64,000 nucleotides of DNA from Candidatus Woesearchaeota archaeon. Lineage in GTDB: Archaea > Nanobdellota > Nanobdellia > Woesearchaeales > UBA10216. The notes under the pieces are model-generated. The model was given only the letters and a program-made list of their open reading frames with translations. It was not told where the DNA came from and did no database searches. How positions within the stretch are numbered: the first letter of the stretch is position 1; the number at the start of each line of letters is the position of its first letter. The position numbers and the translations under genes are program-made. Below, in pieces: positions 17,355 to 23,622 of the stretch. The DNA is taken from NCBI GenBank assembly GCA_016211185.1, contig JACQST010000043.1, positions 1,489 to 65,488 on the forward strand, read 5' to 3'.

Positions 17355-18266
17355 ATGGCGCTGTTTGAGCTTGCCCTGACTGTAGCTGGGCTTTCTCTGT
17401 TCGAGGTCATAAGCAGCATCGATAACGCCATCATCAATGCCGAGGTTCTTTCGACAATGCAGGAAAGGGCCAGGCGCTGGTTTCTTCTTTGGGGTTTGCT
17501 GTTCGCGGTGTTCGTAATCAGGGGCGTGCTACCTTGGCTTATTGTCTGGGCCACCGCACCTTCACTCGGCCCGGTAGGTGCATTGACAGCCACGTTCAGC
17601 AGCGACCCGCGCGTGATTGAGGCTGTGGAGATGTCTGCTCCCATTCTGCTGATTGGTGGAGGGACTTTTCTTGTGCTGCTGTTTTTCCACTGGCTGTTCA
17701 TGGAGCAGAAGCATTATGGCTTGGTGGGAGAGAGATTTTTCCATTCGCAGGGAGTGTGGTTCTACGCTGTTGCGTCCATCTTCCTTGCAGTGATTGTGTG
17801 GTTTGCGCTGCACAAGAATCCGCTGATGGCTTTCTCATCGGTTGTTGGCTCCACTGCTTTTTTCATCACGCACGGCTTCAAGCAGAACGCCGAGCACGAG
17901 GAGGAAAGGCTTCTTGAGAAGGGGAGGTCTGACCTGAGCAAGGTATTTTATCTTGAGGTGATAGACGCGACATTCTCAATAGACGGTGTGCTTGGGGCGT
18001 TCGCGTTCACGCTTTCAGTTCCGCTTATCCTGCTGGGGAACGGACTGGGTGCTGTTGTTCTCAGGCAGATGACCGTAACAAACATAGACCGAATAAAGAA
18101 ATACAAGTACCTGAAGAACGGGGCGATGTATTCGATACTTTTCCTGGGGATGATAATGGTTCTTGACAGCTTCGGATTTCACATACCGAGCTGGCTATCG
18201 CCTGTTACTACTTTTGGCGTTGTAGGTTACTTTTTCTGGAAGTCGAGCCGGGAGATGGGGAGATGA
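17355..18266 (+). CDS. TerC/DUF475-like integral membrane protein
   Basis: Repeated E-x-I-S-S-I-D-N-A/E-V-I-D-A-T-F-S-I-D-G motifs across 7-8 TM segments. Confidence 0.5.
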   Translation: MALFELALTVAGLSLFEVISSIDNAIINAEVLSTMQERARRWFLLWGLLFAVFVIRGVLPWLIVWATAPSLGPVGALTATFSSDPRVIEAVEMSAPILLIGGGTFLVLLFFHWLFMEQKHYGLVGERFFHSQGVWFYAVASIFLAVIVWFALHKNPLMAFSSVVGSTAFFITHGFKQNAEHEEERLLEKGRSDLSKVFYLEVIDATFSIDGVLGAFAFTLSVPLILLGNGLGAVVLRQMTVTNIDRIKKYKYLKNGAMYSILFLGMIMVLDSFGFHIPSWLSPVTTFGVVGYFFWKSSREMGR

Positions 18267-18294
18267 ATAAGGAGTAAAATTCAAGCAATAACTA

Positions 18295-18675
18295 TCAGTC
18301 ATTGCCTTCAGGTGATGTTTTCCTTGGCCTCAAGTATTCCACGTTGTTGGCAAGGTAGGCCAGAAACGCATCGGCTAACCATATGATCTCAGGTAGCTTG
18401 CTTTCATCACCACTATGTTCCTTGAGCTGTCCCGCCTTGTAGTCGTCAAGCATGACTTTTGCGCTCATAACGGCACAGCTATAAGTCAGTTTAGGTGCGA
18501 GCGTAAAGGCAGTTGCAACAGCCCGAACACCTGCGGCGATTTGCATGGAACTTTTTTCATCAGGCTGCGTGCCATTCATGGCAACATAGACGTTTGTAAT
18601 TATGGATTCCAGCTGGCCATCAGTGAATAGTTGGCGTGCTTCCTCAATCATATTGACATCCTGCATAAAAACCAC
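18295..18675 (-). CDS. Hypothetical protein (126 aa)
   Basis: Track ORF with no confident domain. Confidence 0.4.
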   Translation of the reverse strand: MVFMQDVNMIEEARQLFTDGQLESIITNVYVAMNGTQPDEKSSMQIAAGVRAVATAFTLAPKLTYSCAVMSAKVMLDDYKAGQLKEHSGDESKLPEIIWLADAFLAYLANNVEYLRPRKTSPEGND

Positions 18676-18884
18676 CTCGATTTATTAAACTAGCTATAAA
18701 CAGTCATACTACTGCTTTAAATTTGTATGCCATCTTGGGGAGGTGACGAATTTTGCATTACATGCGAGCTCTGCTTTTAAAATGCGCCGCGGCTGGGAGT
18801 TTCGCCCATAATGGTTTTGAGCCCAGAAAGCCCTTTCGGGCTAGACGGGTTTCAGCCATCCGCCATAACCAGATTAGGCGACCG

Positions 18885-19774
18885 CAGTAGGTATTGTTCA
18901 GAGATAGGGTGTTAAGTGACGGCTGATAATCAAAGGCTGATTAAAAACTCAATTTCCTATAACTATCGCATTATAACAATGCGGCTTATAGGCGAGGAAT
19001 GGGAAATGGAGAACAACGAATACCAAACGAGGAAGGCTAAAAGTCTTGAAATGTTAAGGTCAGGAGTAGAGCCAGTTAAGGACTGCTTCAACGAATACCT
19101 TATACCGAGCCAGTCCGAAAAGGGCAAACGATACAAAGTAGCCATCAAAAACGGCTGGTATAACTGTGAATGCCTTGATGACCATATTGGAAACCTCTGC
19201 AAGCACACTCTTCTTTTAAAGACTTATTTGGCTTTGGAATTCAAGGCGCAAGAGCTAAAGCGAAATATGAGCGTGGCTACTCCCTGCCCGAACTGCGAAG
19301 GCAGGAGATTGCAGAAGGACGGCACAAGAAAAACTACTATGGGCAAGAAGCAGAGATGGCTTTGCCTTGACTGTAAGCGAAGGTTTGTTTTAAGCCCTGT
19401 TCAGAAGATTAAAGGTAACGCCGAAGCAGTCATTACGGCTATTGACCTTTACATCAAAGGGGTTTCTTATAGAGGCGTTGCTGATAGTACGAAACAGCAC
19501 GACAGCAACAACAATGTCATAGAGAGATTTCACGAATCATTCAGGCAGAGGGATAAGGTTATGCGTGGCTTCAATGGCAACCAGAAGCAATACGCAGAAA
19601 ACTTTAGGACATACTACAACTTTATCCGCAAACACCAAGAACTCAAAACCACGCCAGCAAAACGGGCAGGAATACAAGAAGCAGACCTATGGCGAGAACT
19701 GCTTGAAAAAGCAACGAATCAGCCGAACCTTAACAGCCGAGATTCAACAGCCAAAGAATGAACAATACCTACTG
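18885..19774. mobile_element. IS-like element (about 890 bp) with perfect 16-bp terminal inverted repeats
   Basis: CAGTAGGTATTGTTCA at 18885..18900 is the reverse complement of TGAACAATACCTACTG at 19759..19774. The repeats bracket a single transposase-like ORF, and the right repeat overlaps that ORF's stop codon. Confidence 0.6.
18916..19761 (+). CDS. Transposase-like protein with SWIM-type zinc finger and Cys4 zinc ribbon; IS1/IS6-like C-terminal motif, catalytic core apparently incomplete
   Basis: YNCECLDDHIGNLCKHTLLL (CxCx(n)CxH SWIM) and CPNCEGRRL...CLDCKRRF. The C-terminal NNNVIERFHESFRQRDKVMRGF...YNFIRKHQEL resembles the segment after the catalytic E of IS1/IS6 DDE transposases. Confidence 0.55.
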   Translation: MTADNQRLIKNSISYNYRIITMRLIGEEWEMENNEYQTRKAKSLEMLRSGVEPVKDCFNEYLIPSQSEKGKRYKVAIKNGWYNCECLDDHIGNLCKHTLLLKTYLALEFKAQELKRNMSVATPCPNCEGRRLQKDGTRKTTMGKKQRWLCLDCKRRFVLSPVQKIKGNAEAVITAIDLYIKGVSYRGVADSTKQHDSNNNVIERFHESFRQRDKVMRGFNGNQKQYAENFRTYYNFIRKHQELKTTPAKRAGIQEADLWRELLEKATNQPNLNSRDSTAKE

Positions 19775-19807
19775 TCCGAAAAAATTATAAGCCCCTTTTG
19801 ATGGTTT

Positions 19808-20650
19808 TTGTGCATGCAGGGGATGCAGAGAATTGCTGTCAGTGATTTCAGCCTGAAGCACACGCTGGAGTGCGGCCAGGTGTTTCGTTTTGATAAGGCT
19901 GGGGAGCTTTATTATCTGGTGGCTGGCGATGATGTTCTTAAGCTGAGGCAGGCTGATGGCTTTCTTGAGTTCAGCAGCAGCAGTGGTGTGGGCGCAGGGT
20001 TTGTGAAGGGTCTTTTCAGGCTTGATGAGGATTATTCGTGTGTGCTGGGCTCTGTTTCCAGGGACAGCCTGATGCGGTCTGCTGTGCTTCATTCCATGGG
20101 GCTTCGTATTATGAGGCAGGAGCCAAGGGAGTGTCTTCTCACTTACCTGTGCTCTGCGAACATGTCCGTTCCCGGGGTTAAGAGAATGGCTGACGGGTTG
20201 GCAAGGAAGTTTGGAAGGCGAATTGCCTTTGATGGAATGGAGTTCTTCTCGTTCCCTGTGAGAATCGGCTCTGCCCGGGAAGTCCGGGGTTGTGGAACAG
20301 GGTTTCGCGCGGAGAGGATTGCAGAGGCAGGCTCTTTGGGAAAAGGCTTTTTCAGCAGGCTCAGGGGGCTGTGCTATGTGGATGCCAAAGAGAAGCTTAT
20401 GCTTTTAAATGGTGTGGGTGACAAGATTGCTGATTGCTGCCTGCTGTATTCCCTTGGCTTCCTTGAGGCCTTTCCTGTTGACAGGTGGATACGAAGGGTT
20501 GTCGCGGCTAATTATCTTGATGGCACGGCAAATGAGAGATCGGTGAGGGATTTTGCAGCCAGTTACTTTGGGGGCTACGCGGGCTATGCGCAGCAGTTTC
20601 TTTATCATTACGCTCGAACGTCAGGAAGGCTTAATCCTGTATCTCGATAA
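19808..20650 (+). CDS. ogg: 8-oxoguanine DNA glycosylase / AP lyase (Ogg-type HhH-GPD)
   Basis: N-terminal HTLECGQVFRF and an HhH-GPD segment LLNGVGDKIADCCLLYSLGFLEAFPVDRWIRRV. Confidence 0.75.
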   Translation: MCMQGMQRIAVSDFSLKHTLECGQVFRFDKAGELYYLVAGDDVLKLRQADGFLEFSSSSGVGAGFVKGLFRLDEDYSCVLGSVSRDSLMRSAVLHSMGLRIMRQEPRECLLTYLCSANMSVPGVKRMADGLARKFGRRIAFDGMEFFSFPVRIGSAREVRGCGTGFRAERIAEAGSLGKGFFSRLRGLCYVDAKEKLMLLNGVGDKIADCCLLYSLGFLEAFPVDRWIRRVVAANYLDGTANERSVRDFAASYFGGYAGYAQQFLYHYARTSGRLNPVSR

Positions 20651-20849
20651 CCTTGTTTTTTGAGTTGTGCCCGGTTAATAGCCTAGCACGACCTCCAAGT
20701 TCCCTGGATATCAGATTGAGGAGCTCAATGTTGGCTTTGTTGTTTTCCGGGGGCGACCTTAGTTTTGCAAAGTACTGTTTCTTTTCAGCGTTGTATGAAA
20801 GCGCCTGTTTCTTGGCTCTTGTTGTCACGCTGACTTCTATTCTTGCCAC
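20631..20849 (-). CDS. DUF167/UPF0235 (YggU-like) protein
   Basis: VSVTTRAKKQ...PENNKANIELLNLISRELG...LLTGHNSKNKVIEI fits the DUF167 pattern. Confidence 0.55.
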   Translation of the reverse strand: MARIEVSVTTRAKKQALSYNAEKKQYFAKLRSPPENNKANIELLNLISRELGGRARLLTGHNSKNKVIEIQD

Positions 20850-20934
20850 CTGAAGGTTTCTATTGATGATATTTTTAAGCTTTTTTACCGCAAGTTTTTT
20901 AAGCTGCTGGTCCGGTATTCTTGATGGTGCTTTA

Positions 20935-23622
20935 ATGGATTTTTATTCTGCTGAGATTAAGGACGTTTTCTTGAATGCCGGCAGCTCGAAGGATGGCCTT
21001 TCGGCAAGCGAAGCTAAAGCCAGGCTTAAGAGGCACGGGTTTAACGAACTGGTTAGGAAGAAGAGGAGGACTGCGCTCAAGATTTTTTTTGAGCAGTTCA
21101 GGAACTTCCTGATACTCCTGCTTTTGTGTGCGAGCGTGCTTGCGGTATTTCTGGGCGATTACGTTGAGGCTGTCGGCATGATTTGCATAGCGATTTTGTC
21201 TGCCATACTGGGGTTTGTTCAGGAGTATAAGGCTGAGCGGGCCATGGAAGCGCTAAAAAGGATTTCTGCCCCGACCGGGAAGGTCGTGAGGGATGGCTCT
21301 GAGAAAAAGATACCTGCCCGGGAGATTGTTCCAGGTGACGTGATAGTTATCGAGTCAGGCGACATAGTTGCCGCGGATGCACGGCTGTTCGAGGATTCAA
21401 GCCTGCAGGTTGATGAGGCGATACTGACAGGCGAGTCTGTTCCTTCTCCAAAGGATACCAAGAAGCTGAAGGAAGGCACTGAAATCACTGAGAGGACGAA
21501 TATGGTCTTCATGGGAACAATAGTCACTTATGGGAAGGGAAGGGGGGTTGTTACCGGCACCGGAATGGATACTGAATTCGGCAAGATTGCCCTCACAATT
21601 GAGGAGGCTGAGGAGCCAAAGACTCTTTTGCAGAACAAGTTTGAGTCCCTTGCGAGGCAGATAGGGCTGGTGGTCATAGTCCTTGTAGGTGTTGTGTTTG
21701 TCTTGGGCCTTTCTTTTCAGAAGGAGGTTTCAATTGCGCGCATGCTGATTTTCTCAATCAGCCTGGCGGTTGCTGCTGTTCCGACTGCGCTGCCTGCCAT
21801 AGTGACTATAGGCTTGGCGCTTGGCGCGAGCAGCATGGCCAAGAGGAACGTGATAATCAAGAAGCTGCCCGCAACTGAGAGCATGGGCTCTGTTACTGTT
21901 ATTTGCAGCGACAAGACAGGCACGTTGACAAAGAGCCAGCTTAGCGCGACAAGGCTGTTCTTTGACGGGAATGTTATTGATGTTTCAGGCATAGGGTATG
22001 AGCCTAAGGGGGAATTCAAGCACGGGACTGAGAAGATGGACAAGAAAAGCCTTGAGTTCATGCTGAGGATAGGGTATCTGTGCAACAATGCGAAGCTTGT
22101 TGAGAAGGGTGGCCGGTGGGATATCATTGGGGACCCGACTGAGGGTGCATTGGTGGTGCTTGCAAGGAAGGGCAGGCTTGATGAGAAGGCGTTGTCGCGG
22201 CGCCTTTCAGTTGTGAAGGAGCTTCCATTCAGTTCTGAGCGCAAGATGATGACTGTTATTGCTGGCAGGAAAAGGAAGCCTGAGCGTGTATGCGCCTATG
22301 TGAAGGGCGCTCCGGATGTTGTTCTCAAGAAGTGCGCAAGGATATATGATTCCGGCAGGATAAGGAGTCTTACGAAGAGGGACAGGGAGTCCATCCTTTC
22401 TGTTAATGAGTCATTTGCCGAGGATGCCCTCAGGGTGCTTGGGCTTGCGTGCAGGGATATGCCTGCGGGCGGCAAGTATGAGATTGAGGGTGTTGAGAGG
22501 GACCTTGTTTTTGTAGGGCTTGTCGGCATGATTGATGCTCCCCGTGAGGAGGTTGCTGCTGCTGTGAAGCAGTGTGAGGACGCGGGGATAAATGTCATAG
22601 CCATAACAGGCGACCACCCTGTAACAGCGAAGGCTGTTGCGGACAGGATTGGCCTACTGAAGAAGGATGACCTCGTGGTTACCGGGGAGTATATTGACCG
22701 GCTCAACGATTCTGAGCTTATGGAGAAGCTTGGCAGGATAAGAGTTGTGGCGAGGGCGCTTCCAGGCCACAAGCTCAGGATGGTGAAGCTGCTGAAGAAG
22801 CAGGGCCATGTCGTTGCAATGACTGGCGATGGTGTTAATGACGCGCCGGCATTGAAGACTGCTGACGTCGGCATCGCGATGGGTATCACTGGCAGCGACG
22901 TGGCCAAGGAGGTGTCAAAGACAGTTCTTGTTGACGATAACTTTGCAAGCATAGTTAACGCCATCAGCGAGGGGCGCAACATATATGACAAAATCATCAA
23001 GTCTTCCCGTTATCTTTTGTCGTGCAACCTCGGCGAGATAATAACTGTTTTCCTTGCGATAATGCTGAACCTGCCGCTGCCCCTTGTCCCTCTCCAGATA
23101 CTTATGATGAATCTCCTTACAGATGGCCTGCCTGCACTTGGCCTGGGCATGGAGGGCGCTGAGGAGGACGTGATGAAGAGGTCTCCAAGGAACCCTAAGG
23201 AAAGCCTGTTCACGAATGAGATGCTTATACTTACCCTGATATTCGGCATCGTGATGGGGATAGGCACGCTTTTCATATTCAACACTTATCTTGACAGGGG
23301 GGAGGAGGTTGCGAGGACTGCTGCGTTCACAACGCTTGTGCTGTTTGAGATGTTTGCAGTGGTGGGAAGCAGGTCCCTTTATCCGTTCAGGAAGCTCAAC
23401 ATATTCACCAACAAATGGCTCCTGCTTGGAATCCTTGCTTCGGTATCCATCCAAGTGGCTATTGTGAACTGGGGGCCTCTTCAGGCCATCTTCAGCACAG
23501 TTTCCCTGAGCAGCTCAGACTGGCTGAGGATAGTCACGATATCAAGCCTTGGCTTCTTCGTCATGGAGCTCGGCAAGGTGTTTGTGAGCGGGCTCAGGGC
23601 AGGCAGGAACGCCCCTTCATAG
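20935..23622 (+). CDS. P-type cation-transporting ATPase (type II, Ca2+/cation)
   Basis: CSDKTGTLT phosphorylation site, TGDGVNDAPALK hinge and 10 TM helices. The start was refined to MDFYSAEIKD. Confidence 0.9.
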   Translation: MDFYSAEIKDVFLNAGSSKDGLSASEAKARLKRHGFNELVRKKRRTALKIFFEQFRNFLILLLLCASVLAVFLGDYVEAVGMICIAILSAILGFVQEYKAERAMEALKRISAPTGKVVRDGSEKKIPAREIVPGDVIVIESGDIVAADARLFEDSSLQVDEAILTGESVPSPKDTKKLKEGTEITERTNMVFMGTIVTYGKGRGVVTGTGMDTEFGKIALTIEEAEEPKTLLQNKFESLARQIGLVVIVLVGVVFVLGLSFQKEVSIARMLIFSISLAVAAVPTALPAIVTIGLALGASSMAKRNVIIKKLPATESMGSVTVICSDKTGTLTKSQLSATRLFFDGNVIDVSGIGYEPKGEFKHGTEKMDKKSLEFMLRIGYLCNNAKLVEKGGRWDIIGDPTEGALVVLARKGRLDEKALSRRLSVVKELPFSSERKMMTVIAGRKRKPERVCAYVKGAPDVVLKKCARIYDSGRIRSLTKRDRESILSVNESFAEDALRVLGLACRDMPAGGKYEIEGVERDLVFVGLVGMIDAPREEVAAAVKQCEDAGINVIAITGDHPVTAKAVADRIGLLKKDDLVVTGEYIDRLNDSELMEKLGRIRVVARALPGHKLRMVKLLKKQGHVVAMTGDGVNDAPALKTADVGIAMGITGSDVAKEVSKTVLVDDNFASIVNAISEGRNIYDKIIKSSRYLLSCNLGEIITVFLAIMLNLPLPLVPLQILMMNLLTDGLPALGLGMEGAEEDVMKRSPRNPKESLFTNEMLILTLIFGIVMGIGTLFIFNTYLDRGEEVARTAAFTTLVLFEMFAVVGSRSLYPFRKLNIFTNKWLLLGILASVSIQVAIVNWGPLQAIFSTVSLSSSDWLRIVTISSLGFFVMELGKVFVSGLRAGRNAPS

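What the first reader, a model, noticed from the sequence alone, without database searches (positions are those of the whole stretch)
18885..19774. Compact IS-like element with perfect 16-bp TIRs and a SWIM-zinc-finger transposase-like gene inserted just upstream of ogg
CAGTAGGTATTGTTCA at 18885..18900 is exactly inverted at 19759..19774, enclosing one 281-aa ORF. The protein has an N-terminal SWIM CxCx(n)CxH finger and a Cys4 ribbon. Its C-terminus matches the region after the catalytic Glu of IS1/IS6 DDE transposases (NNNVIERFHESFRQRDKVMRGF...YNFIRKHQEL). The space between is too short for a complete DDE core, so this is either a very compact transposase, a non-autonomous derivative or a domesticated gene. 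It sits between a hypothetical gene and ogg.
Basis: seen in the sequence. Interest (0 to 1): 0.5.

Follow-up and report, generated by a model that had tools for sequence, protein, structure and literature searches.

The report
Gutted relic of archaeal IS6-like transposon
This is a dead, stripped-down copy of a mobile DNA element from a tiny groundwater archaeon: it keeps both ends but has lost the catalytic heart of its transposase, so the copy is ordinary, although its intact relatives form an apparently undescribed branch of IS6-like transposons that carry restriction-modification genes.

Summary
The inverted repeat and the ORF are real. The element is not a compact transposase. Its ORF is collinear with 366-380-aa IS6-type DDE transposases of DPANN archaea (SWIM finger, Cys4 ribbon, H-HTH, RNase-H-like core). 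It carries a clean 387-bp in-frame deletion between two AAN-CAG microhomologies. The deletion removes HTH helix 3 and both catalytic Asp; only the Glu motif (NNNVIERF) remains.

Intact relatives are 2.1-4.9 kb. Their repeats start at GGTATTG, have three subterminal GGCTGKTAA repeats per end, and are flanked by perfect 9-bp target duplications. They carry 1.0-3.5 kb of variable cargo (often restriction-modification genes) between the left end and the transposase gene. The window copy has no cargo (116 bp there) and no target duplication (1/9).

Only 11 bp of the "16-bp TIR" belong to the family repeat. The outer CAGTA/TACTG is flanking DNA, inverted for reasons I could not explain.

No second copy exists in the window, and no other protein within 90% identity exists among about 15 billion sequences.

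Verdict: a non-autonomous, probably inert relic. The copy is ordinary; the family (SWIM-IS6-like, 9-bp duplication, internal cargo) is a variant of IS6 that I did not find described.

The parts
18890..18943 (+). Left inverted repeat (IRL). It has an 11-bp terminal GGTATTGTTCA and three subterminal repeats, GGGTGTTAA (18907), GGCTGATAA (18921) and GGCTGATTA (18935), spaced 14 bp apart.
   Evidence: It aligns with the IRLs of L001, L031, L089-L093.
18885..18889 (.). CAGTA, flanking DNA that extends the inverted repeat to 16 bp. It is not part of the family repeat.
   Evidence: Relatives' repeats start at GG and have unrelated preceding bases.
18944..19005 (+). Short leader that replaces the 1.0-3.5 kb cargo region of intact relatives. 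Only the last ~20-25 nt (TTATAGGCGAGGAATGGGAA) are homologous to the conserved tnp leader.
   Evidence: The IRL-to-tnp distance is 116 bp here, against 989 bp in the decayed L031 and 1029-3751 bp in the other 14 delimited relatives.
19006..19761 (+). Internally deleted transposase ORF of 251 aa from the homologous ATG. The mechanical ORF starts at GTG 18916 (281 aa). The stop codon TGA at 19759-19761 lies inside the right terminal repeat.
19165..19206 (+). SWIM-type zinc-finger motif, CECLDDHIGNLCKH (CxCxnCxH).
   Evidence: Invariant Cys/His columns. Pfam SWIM PF04434 passes its cut-off in relative P0006 (22.2 against 19.6). The window copy has N->D and I->T at two family-invariant positions.
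19285..19374 (+). Cys4 zinc ribbon (CPNC...CLDC).
   Evidence: NF050000, 31.9 bits against 28. Invariant columns.
19420..19497 (+). First two helices of the H-HTH DNA-binding domain. The third helix is deleted.
   Evidence: AlphaFold model of P0002 has helices at 139-150, 155-166 and 172-190. The deletion starts after residue 164.
19495..19500 (+). Deletion junction CAG|CAC. 387 bp (129 codons, P0002 residues 165-293) are missing. The breakpoints lie in AAN-CAG microhomology.
   Evidence: Codon-level comparison with L001 and L007. tblastn gives two collinear segments, 1-164 and 286-365.
19507..19530 (+). Remnant catalytic-Glu motif NNNVIERF (Glu codon at 19522-19524). This is the only surviving member of the DDE triad.
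   Evidence: N298, N299 and E302 are invariant in the family.
19716..19769 (-). Right inverted repeat (IRR). It has the terminal GGTATTGTTCA and three subterminal repeats, GGCTGTTGA, GGCTGTTAA and GGCTGATTC, spaced 14 bp apart. It overlaps the 3' end of the ORF.
19770..19774 (.). TACTG, flanking DNA that is the inverted complement of 18885-18889.

Best explanation
The 880-bp segment 18890-19769 is a degenerate, non-autonomous copy of an IS6-like transposon family found in DPANN archaea. The host contig is from a Candidatus Woesearchaeota genome.

Shown:
- Intact family members encode a 366-380-aa transposase with a SWIM finger, a Cys4 ribbon, an H-HTH domain and an RNase-H-fold DDE core.
- They are bounded by ~50-bp imperfect inverted repeats that start GGTATTG and hold three GGCTGKTAA repeats.
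- They make 9-bp target duplications.
- They carry variable cargo genes between the left end and the transposase gene.
- The window copy kept both ends. It lacks 387 bp of the transposase gene, removed between short AAN-CAG repeats, so HTH helix 3 and both catalytic aspartates are gone. It has no cargo segment and no target duplication.

Inferred:
- The deletion arose by replication slippage or microhomology-mediated repair.
- The encoded protein cannot cleave or join DNA.
- The element cannot move unless a full-length transposase from elsewhere in the genome binds its intact ends.
- It is most likely an inert relic sitting in the divergent promoter region upstream of ogg.
For: - The window ORF matches 366-380-aa PF13610/IS6-type proteins in two collinear blocks, at 79% and 88% identity to P0002.
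- The missing block holds WNADEQFIK and VVTDGAF, the two Asp motifs, which are invariant or nearly invariant in the family.
- The nucleotide junction lies in AAN-CAG microhomology and removes exactly 387 bp.
- The window protein scores 18.5 bits on the curated IS6 model. Full-length relatives score 117-128 bits against a cut-off of 125.
- The AlphaFold model of P0002 (pLDDT 76.8) shows that the deleted span covers HTH helix 3 and strands b1-b5 of an RNase-H-like fold. Its best PDB matches are the ISCth4 transposase, retroviral integrases, MuA, IstA and TnsB.
- Eleven independent relatives have exact 9-bp flanking duplications and IR ends homologous to the window's.
- The window scores 1/9 for a flanking duplication.
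- No second copy, full-length transposase gene or further end-like sequence occurs in the 64-kb window.
- The deleted ORF is a singleton cluster on one contig in the ~15-billion-protein collection.
- Independent decay is common in the family. L031 has a different internal deletion plus a frameshift. P0045, P0057 and P0060 are truncated at different points.
- The window protein deviates at 2 of 56 family-invariant positions, while its close relatives deviate at 0.
Against: - The deletion is in frame and the ORF remains open for 251 codons with no further stop or frameshift. An inert pseudogene would do this only by chance (about 1 in 3 for the frame) or if the deletion is recent.
- Both ends keep all three subterminal repeats, so mobilisation in trans is not excluded.
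- The rest of the genome could not be examined.
- Whether the cargo was lost, or this lineage never had cargo, cannot be decided. No left-arm junction homology was found.
- The 5-bp inverted flank CAGTA/TACTG is unexplained.
Confidence: 0.85

Rival explanations
1. It is an active non-autonomous element of the MITE type. The intact ends are recognised by a full-length transposase encoded elsewhere in the same genome, and the element still transposes.
For: Both inverted repeats and all six subterminal GGCTGKTAA repeats are intact. The family is abundant in Woesearchaeota, and some genomes hold several copies. OZ242164.1 has three loci and DATDZA01 has two.
Against: There is only one copy in 64 kb. 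No other member of its 90% protein cluster exists anywhere. There is no target duplication. No full-length partner lies on the contig. A scan of JGI metagenomes for related ends found only three contigs, and none was this deleted form.
Confidence: 0.12
2. It is a domesticated or regulatory protein. The truncated product (SWIM, zinc ribbon, part of the HTH, C-terminal helices) binds element ends or the transposase and represses transposition. Internally deleted KP P-elements and IS1 InsA work this way (from general knowledge).
For: The deletion is in frame and the ORF is intact. The zinc-binding residues are all retained. N-terminal-only ORFs recur in the family, and NCBI annotates P0057 as a 'SWIM zinc finger family protein'.
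Against: The protein is a singleton with no orthologues carrying the same deletion. The third helix of the H-HTH domain, presumably its DNA-recognition helix, is deleted. Two family-invariant residues next to the SWIM ligands are changed. The gene still sits inside its own inverted repeats, and the truncations in relatives all differ, as expected for decay.
Confidence: 0.05
3. It is a very compact but functional DDE transposase.
For: The ORF is open, the Glu motif is retained and the ends are intact.
Against: Both catalytic Asp motifs and the entire beta-sheet of the RNase-H fold are absent relative to every full-length homologue. The IS6 model score is 18.5 bits against a cut-off of 125.
Confidence: 0.01
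4. The inverted repeat is a chance match or an assembly artefact, and no mobile element is present.
For: None beyond the lack of a target duplication.
Against: The ends are homologous over ~50 bp to the ends of more than 10 independently delimited transposons. Those transposons encode the homologous transposase. The exact 16-mer occurs only at these two sites in the window.
Confidence: 0.01

Closest known systems
IS6/IS26 family, 'long' zinc-finger clades (clade h/VII such as ISCpe7 and ISCbo1; clade i/VIII) and the solitary ISDsp3 of Dehalococcoides (PMC7986276, PMC6807381)
   Same: The DDE core matches the IS6 profiles PF13610 and NF033587 over their full length. An H-HTH domain precedes the core. 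The N-terminal extension contains a Cys4 zinc finger. The terminal repeats start GG and have G at position 7. ISDsp3 also carries a passenger gene, and Dehalococcoidia relatives that have a zinc ribbon but no SWIM finger were recovered here.
   Different: The duplication is 9 bp rather than 8 bp. A SWIM finger lies N-terminal to the ribbon. The ends are ~50 bp with three subterminal repeats rather than a 14-bp repeat. The elements carry 1.0-3.5 kb of internal cargo inside a single pair of repeats, instead of forming pseudo-compound transposons. The hosts are archaea (DPANN, Thermoplasmata). NF033587 scores straddle the cut-off. The window copy itself lacks the catalytic core.
Classical archaeal IS6-family elements (ISfinder clades Ai-Aiv / a-d; about 700-750 bp)
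   Same: They share archaeal hosts, an IS6-type DDE motif with E--F---K-R after the Glu (here IERFHESFRQR) and terminal repeats longer than 14 bp (PMC6807381).
   Different: Those elements are short, single-gene and without zinc-finger extensions or cargo. The family here has a 366-380-aa transposase and is 2.1-4.9 kb long. The window copy's length of 880 bp resembles them only because of deletions.
Internally deleted non-autonomous DNA transposons (MITEs of the IS6 family, 227 and 336 bp, PMC7986276; KP-type deleted P elements, from general knowledge)
   Same: Both ends are retained and the catalytic region is lost through internal deletion. The remaining ORF could encode a DNA-binding fragment.
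   Different: This is a single copy with no target duplication, no evidence of amplification and no evidence of repressor function.
SWIM zinc-finger proteins and Mutator/MULE-type transposases (Pfam PF04434, PF00872)
   Same: The CxCxnCxH motif is present. There is weak profile similarity to Mutator-family (IS256) transposases over the ribbon/HTH region, and the best structural match is ISCth4.
   Different: In MULEs the SWIM finger is C-terminal to the catalytic domain. Here it is N-terminal, and the core is closest to IS6, not IS256 (121.9-128.5 bits against 40.9-44.8 bits for P0002 and P0006).

Membership tests
IS6 family (as defined in ISfinder, PMC7986276 and PMC6807381) | Transposase matches the curated IS6 profile (NCBIfam NF033587, cut-off 125 bits; Pfam PF13610) | tested here: not met
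   The window protein scores 18.5 bits on NF033587, tail only, and has no PF13610 hit. Full-length relatives score 117.3-128.5 bits over the whole model, which is borderline. On PF13610 they score 59-64 bits against a cut-off of 27.
IS6 family | Complete DDE catalytic triad followed by K/R | tested here: not met
   Both Asp motifs lie in the deleted 129 codons. Only NNNVIERFHESFRQR remains. The triad is present and conserved in the relatives.
IS6 family | Terminal inverted repeats starting GG with G at position 7 | tested here: met
   GGTATTGTTCA is present at both ends. The same start is found in relatives.
IS6 family | 8-bp target-site duplication | tested here: not met
   The window shows no duplication at either boundary choice (1/9). 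Relatives have exact 9-bp duplications in 11 independent elements.
IS6 family | Small (~0.8 kb; long clades 1.2-1.8 kb) single-gene element | tested here: not met
   Intact relatives are 2147-4928 bp and carry 1-4 passenger ORFs. The window's 880 bp results from deletion.
IS6 family | [quoted passage not shown] | tested here: inconclusive
   The model of P0002 shows three helices at 139-190 directly before b1. The window copy retains only the first two. DNA binding was not tested.
IS6 family | Transposition through cointegrates (replicative or targeted conservative) | not testable with these tools
   This needs genetic or biochemical assays.
MITE / active non-autonomous element | Multiple near-identical copies flanked by target duplications | tested here: not met
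   There is one copy in the window, the protein cluster is a singleton and there is no duplication. The rest of the genome was not available.
SWIM zinc-finger domain (PF04434) | CxCxnCxH signature and profile match above the gathering score | tested here: met
   The signature is present in the window protein on invariant columns. The profile passes in P0006 (22.2 against 19.6) and falls just below in P0002 (19.1). The window protein itself gave no reported SWIM hit.

The most novel reading that the evidence does not exclude
The window copy is a relic, but it points to an apparently undescribed archaeal branch of IS6-like transposons. The transposase has an N-terminal SWIM finger plus a Cys4 ribbon. 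The ends are long and hold three subterminal repeats. The target duplication is 9 bp. A single pair of repeats encloses variable restriction-modification or other defence-type cargo. The branch is widespread in DPANN archaea and Thermoplasmata. If this holds, it would be a vehicle for restriction-modification and defence genes in very small archaeal genomes, and a natural system for asking what a SWIM finger does in a prokaryotic transposase.
Probability: 0.55. Interest if true: 0.45.

Novelty: new variant of a known kind. Interest (0 to 1): 0.28.

Why it matters
The copy in the window matters little. It is a dead insertion just upstream of ogg and its only conceivable effect is on ogg transcription.

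The family it belongs to is more useful. It stretches the IS6 definition in four ways: a 9-bp duplication, multi-repeat ends, a SWIM module and internal cargo. This bears on the open debate over whether long and archaeal 'IS6' elements belong in that family at all (PMC6807381).

The family also shows single-unit transposons moving restriction-modification genes among DPANN archaea, whose mobile elements are poorly catalogued. For annotation, it explains the 'SWIM zinc finger family protein' and 'hypothetical protein' calls in these genomes as transposase fragments.

Tried and rejected
- Second copy or autonomous partner in the window: none found by tblastn with full-length P0002 and P0006, by blastn with the element, or by motif and fuzzy IR scans.
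- tRNA or structured-RNA insertion target next to the element: no tRNA in the window and no Rfam hit in 17500-21000.
- Empty-site reconstruction through ogg homologues: the nearest non-self ogg is only 52% identical, so no sister genome is available.
- Metagenome scan for closely related ends: three contigs were found, all with cargo-type left arms. None had CAGTA before GG.
- Mechanisms for the inverted 5-bp flanks: I considered a palindromic target, conversion of one duplication copy, inversion by intramolecular transposition, and recombination between copies. None reproduces ACCGCAGTA/TACTGTCCG, so this stays unexplained.
- Whether the neighbouring 126-aa gene in the same low-GC patch is displaced cargo: it has no similarity to any cargo protein, no Pfam hit, and no end-like sequence beyond it.
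- A conserved accessory gene in the cargo, such as a resolvase or ATPase: rejected, because the cargo is heterogeneous.
- Sigma-70 promoter and terminator scan: uninformative, and not appropriate for an archaeon.
- Literature search for SWIM plus IS6: no paper found.
- IS1 membership: only the zinc ribbon and weak partial similarity match. NF033558 gives 30-63 bits against a cut-off of 100.

Full report
**Observation**

The 16-nt sequence CAGTAGGTATTGTTCA at 18885-18900 is exactly inverted at 19759-19774. Allowing three mismatches, these are the only two occurrences in the window. The repeat continues imperfectly to 58 nt at 72%.

One long ORF fills the interval (18916-19761, GTG start, 281 aa). 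Homologues begin at its Met31 (ATG at 19006), so the likely product is 251 aa. The region is lower in G+C (0.43-0.46) than the flanking genes (0.50-0.57). The element lies between a 126-aa ORF on the minus strand (18295-18675) and ogg (annotated 'DNA lyase').

**What the protein is**

Profile searches of the window protein gave only fragments:
- a Cys4 ribbon of the IS1/IS1595/IS256 type (NF050000, 31.9 bits against a cut-off of 28);
- the last ~45 residues of IS6/rve-type cores (NF033587, 18.5 bits against 125).

A search of 5.8 billion protein clusters found one identical entry. It is a hypothetical protein of a Candidatus Woesearchaeota genome on a 65,765-bp contig, and the cluster has one member. 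The search also found about 90 relatives, most of them 366-380 aa with the IS6-type domain PF13610. NCBI names some of them 'IS6 family transposase'.

In alignment the window protein is collinear with these relatives but lacks one internal block. tblastn of P0002 against the window gives residues 1-164 at 79% identity and 286-365 at 88%.

At codon level the window reads ...AAA CAG|CAC GAC.... The full-length genes read AAG/AAA CAG|CTT... on the left side and AAC/AAT CAG|CAC GAT... on the right. This is a 387-bp, 129-codon, in-frame deletion between AAN-CAG microhomologies.

The lost block contains WNADEQFIK and VVTDGAF, the two catalytic Asp motifs. The Glu motif NNNVIERFHESFRQR survives.

An AlphaFold model of full-length P0002 built from the family alignment has mean pLDDT 76.8. 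It places three helices (139-150, 155-166, 172-190; the H-HTH domain) before a b1-b2-b3-a-b4-a-b5 RNase-H-like core (200-287). The deletion removes HTH helix 3 and the whole sheet. Foldseek matches the model to the ISCth4 transposase, retroviral integrases, MuA, IstA and TnsB. The window protein therefore cannot be catalytically active.

**What the intact element looks like**

I fetched loci for P0002, P0003, P0006 and P0012 and 79 loci from reference genomes.

In L001 and L007, sequences homologous to the window's ends lie 3.3 and 2.7 kb apart. They do not lie directly around the transposase gene.

Boundaries were defined by hand and by an unbiased scan. The scan required an exact flanking repeat and at least 11/14 terminal identity. 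The results were consistent.

| Locus | Flanking 9-bp duplication |
|---|---|
| L001 | CGGAGGCAT |
| L007/L010 | CTATTTTTC |
| L012 | TTGAAATAA |
| L013 | CTTTGATGG |
| L014 | TGTCCATAG |
| L015 | AGTAGAATC |
| L018 | CATTGGTGG |
| L027 | CGATGACCA |
| L030 | CTAAGAAAG |
| L045 | CGCCGTCAT |
| L092 | TTGTGCGGT |

- The repeats start GGTATTG, GGTGTTGG, GGCATTNG or GGTTCTG.
- They extend ~50 bp and hold three GGCTGKTAA repeats at 14-bp spacing.
- L029 scores 8/9, L031 7/9 and L093 has no duplication.
- Element lengths are 2147-4928 bp.
- The left end lies 1029-3751 bp from the transposase start in these elements, and 989 bp in the decayed L031.

The intervening ORFs are not conserved between elements. 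By Pfam they include:
- a PLD/NgoFVII-like nuclease with an Eco57I-type methylase;
- an HNH nuclease with a D12 methylase;
- a C5 methylase;
- N6_Mtase/HSDR_N with Methylase_S;
- a RelA/SpoT-domain protein;
- an AAA-ATPase with a wHTH;
- a NYN-domain protein;
- DUF1828 and DUF6978-like proteins.

**How the window copy compares**

Its ends are homologous to the family's ends, including all six subterminal repeats. The left end is only 116 bp from the transposase ATG. Only the last ~20-25 nt of that stretch match the conserved leader. The cargo region is therefore absent. Whether it was deleted or never present cannot be decided.

With the family's boundary (GG at 18890, CC at 19769) the 9-bp flanks are ACCGCAGTA and TACTGTCCG, a 1/9 match.

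The outer CAGTA/TACTG is not part of the repeat in any relative. It is flanking DNA in inverted orientation. The chance of this is about 1 in 1000, and none of the simple rearrangement models I tried reproduces it. I leave it unexplained.

No other copy, full-length gene or end-like sequence occurs in the window. No tRNA or Rfam RNA lies next to the element. An empty site could not be found because the nearest ogg homologue outside this contig is only 52% identical.

**Decay in the family**

L031, whose left end is the closest to the window's, carries a different internal deletion (NGWYSCDC|LDNETRF). It removes the ribbon, the HTH and the first Asp, and there is a frameshift as well. P0045, P0057 and P0060 are truncated at three other points.

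The window protein differs at 2 of 56 positions that are invariant in 29 full-length proteins (N->D and I->T, both beside SWIM ligands). Its close relatives differ at none, and four more divergent proteins also differ at two. This is a weak sign of relaxed constraint.

**Mechanism**

Shown:
- homology to the full-length transposases;
- the deletion and its junction;
- loss of both Asp and of HTH helix 3;
- intact ends;
- absence of cargo, of a target duplication and of other copies.

Inferred:
- the deletion arose by slippage or microhomology-mediated repair;
- the product is catalytically dead;
- the element is immobile unless a full-length transposase acts in trans;
- it is most likely an inert relic (confidence 0.85).

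Rivals are an element still mobilised in trans (0.12), a KP/InsA-like repressor or domesticated protein (0.05), a compact active transposase (0.01) and a chance match (0.01).

**Comparison with known families**

IS6/IS26 is defined by ~0.8-kb elements, 14-bp repeats with G at positions 1, 2 and 7, 8-bp duplications, a 213-254-aa H-HTH-DDE transposase and cointegrate formation. Clostridial clades have zinc-finger extensions (340-450 aa). Only ISDsp3 carries a passenger gene (PMC7986276, PMC6807381).

The family here shares:
- the core, with NF033587 scores of 117-128 bits against a cut-off of 125 over the whole model, and a PF13610 match;
- the H-HTH domain;
- the zinc ribbon;
- the GG...G7 ends.

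It differs in:
- the 9-bp duplication;
- the long multi-repeat ends;
- the N-terminal SWIM finger, which is present in DPANN and Thermoplasmata members and absent in Dehalococcoidia/Chloroflexi relatives;
- the internal cargo.

No solved IS6 structure exists. No paper combining a SWIM zinc finger with IS6 was found. I therefore call the family a new variant of a known kind, and the window copy a defective member of it.

**Verdict**

It is a gutted, single-copy relic, not a compact transposase. Interest for the copy itself is low. The family context is moderately interesting.

Noticed in passing
L013, L014, L029, L030, L015, L027, L092, L001 (between the left repeat and the transposase gene): Intact relatives carry variable cargo inside a single pair of repeats. 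Several cargoes are complete-looking restriction-modification pairs: PLD nuclease with Eco57I-type methylase, HNH with D12 methylase, a C5 methylase, and N6 methylase with an S subunit. Others are a RelA/SpoT-domain protein, an AAA-ATPase with a wHTH, and a NYN nuclease.
   Followed up: partly
L001 2714-2857(-), L007 2731-2871(-), L031 1074-1223(-), L092 5852-5992(-), L029, L013, L030: A small ORF of 46-76 aa sits directly upstream of the transposase gene on the opposite strand in many members. It looks zinc-ribbon-like in L001/L013/L029 and ribbon-helix-helix-like in L007/L031. It may be a regulator. It is absent from the window copy.
   Followed up: partly
L031 338-2896: This is a second, independent internal-deletion derivative. 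Its transposase ORF jumps from the SWIM motif (CDC) to LDNETRF at a shared Asp-Asn (DN) codon pair, which may be a microhomology, and it also has a frameshift after HESFR. Its flanking repeat is decayed to 7/9.
   Followed up: yes
window 18885-18889 and 19770-19774: The 5 bp flanking each end are inverted complements (CAGTA/TACTG) instead of a direct duplication. Removing the element would leave the palindrome CAGTATACTG. No mechanism was found.
   Followed up: partly
window 18100-19800: The low-GC patch (0.43-0.48) extends left of the element over the 126-aa ORF at 18295-18675(-). That ORF has no Pfam hit and no similarity to any cargo protein. It is unclear whether it arrived with the element.
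   Followed up: partly
window 19775-19823: Only ~38-44 bp separate the right end from the ogg start (NCBI start ATG 19814). A TATA-like TTATAA at 19785-19790 lies between them. The ogg promoter may therefore be intact, and the truncated ORF reads towards ogg. Any effect on ogg expression was not assessed.
   Followed up: no
L046, L050, L051, L060 (Thermoplasmata); L070, L074, L079, L085 (Dehalococcoidia/Chloroflexi): In Thermoplasmata relatives the open frame can be extended mechanically ~150 aa upstream of the SWIM motif, giving about 540 aa, and the true start was not determined. Bacterial relatives have the zinc ribbon but no SWIM motif, like the ISDsp3-type long IS6 elements.
   Followed up: partly
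P0045, P0057, P0060 (proteins): N-terminal-only fragments (SWIM plus ribbon, with or without part of the core) recur on long contigs. One is annotated by NCBI as a 'SWIM zinc finger family protein'. These are probably transposase remnants rather than a separate protein family.
   Followed up: partly
L093 1980-4502: This full-length member (P0012, 366 aa) has recognisable ends but no flanking duplication. Copies without a duplication therefore occur elsewhere in the family too.
   Followed up: no
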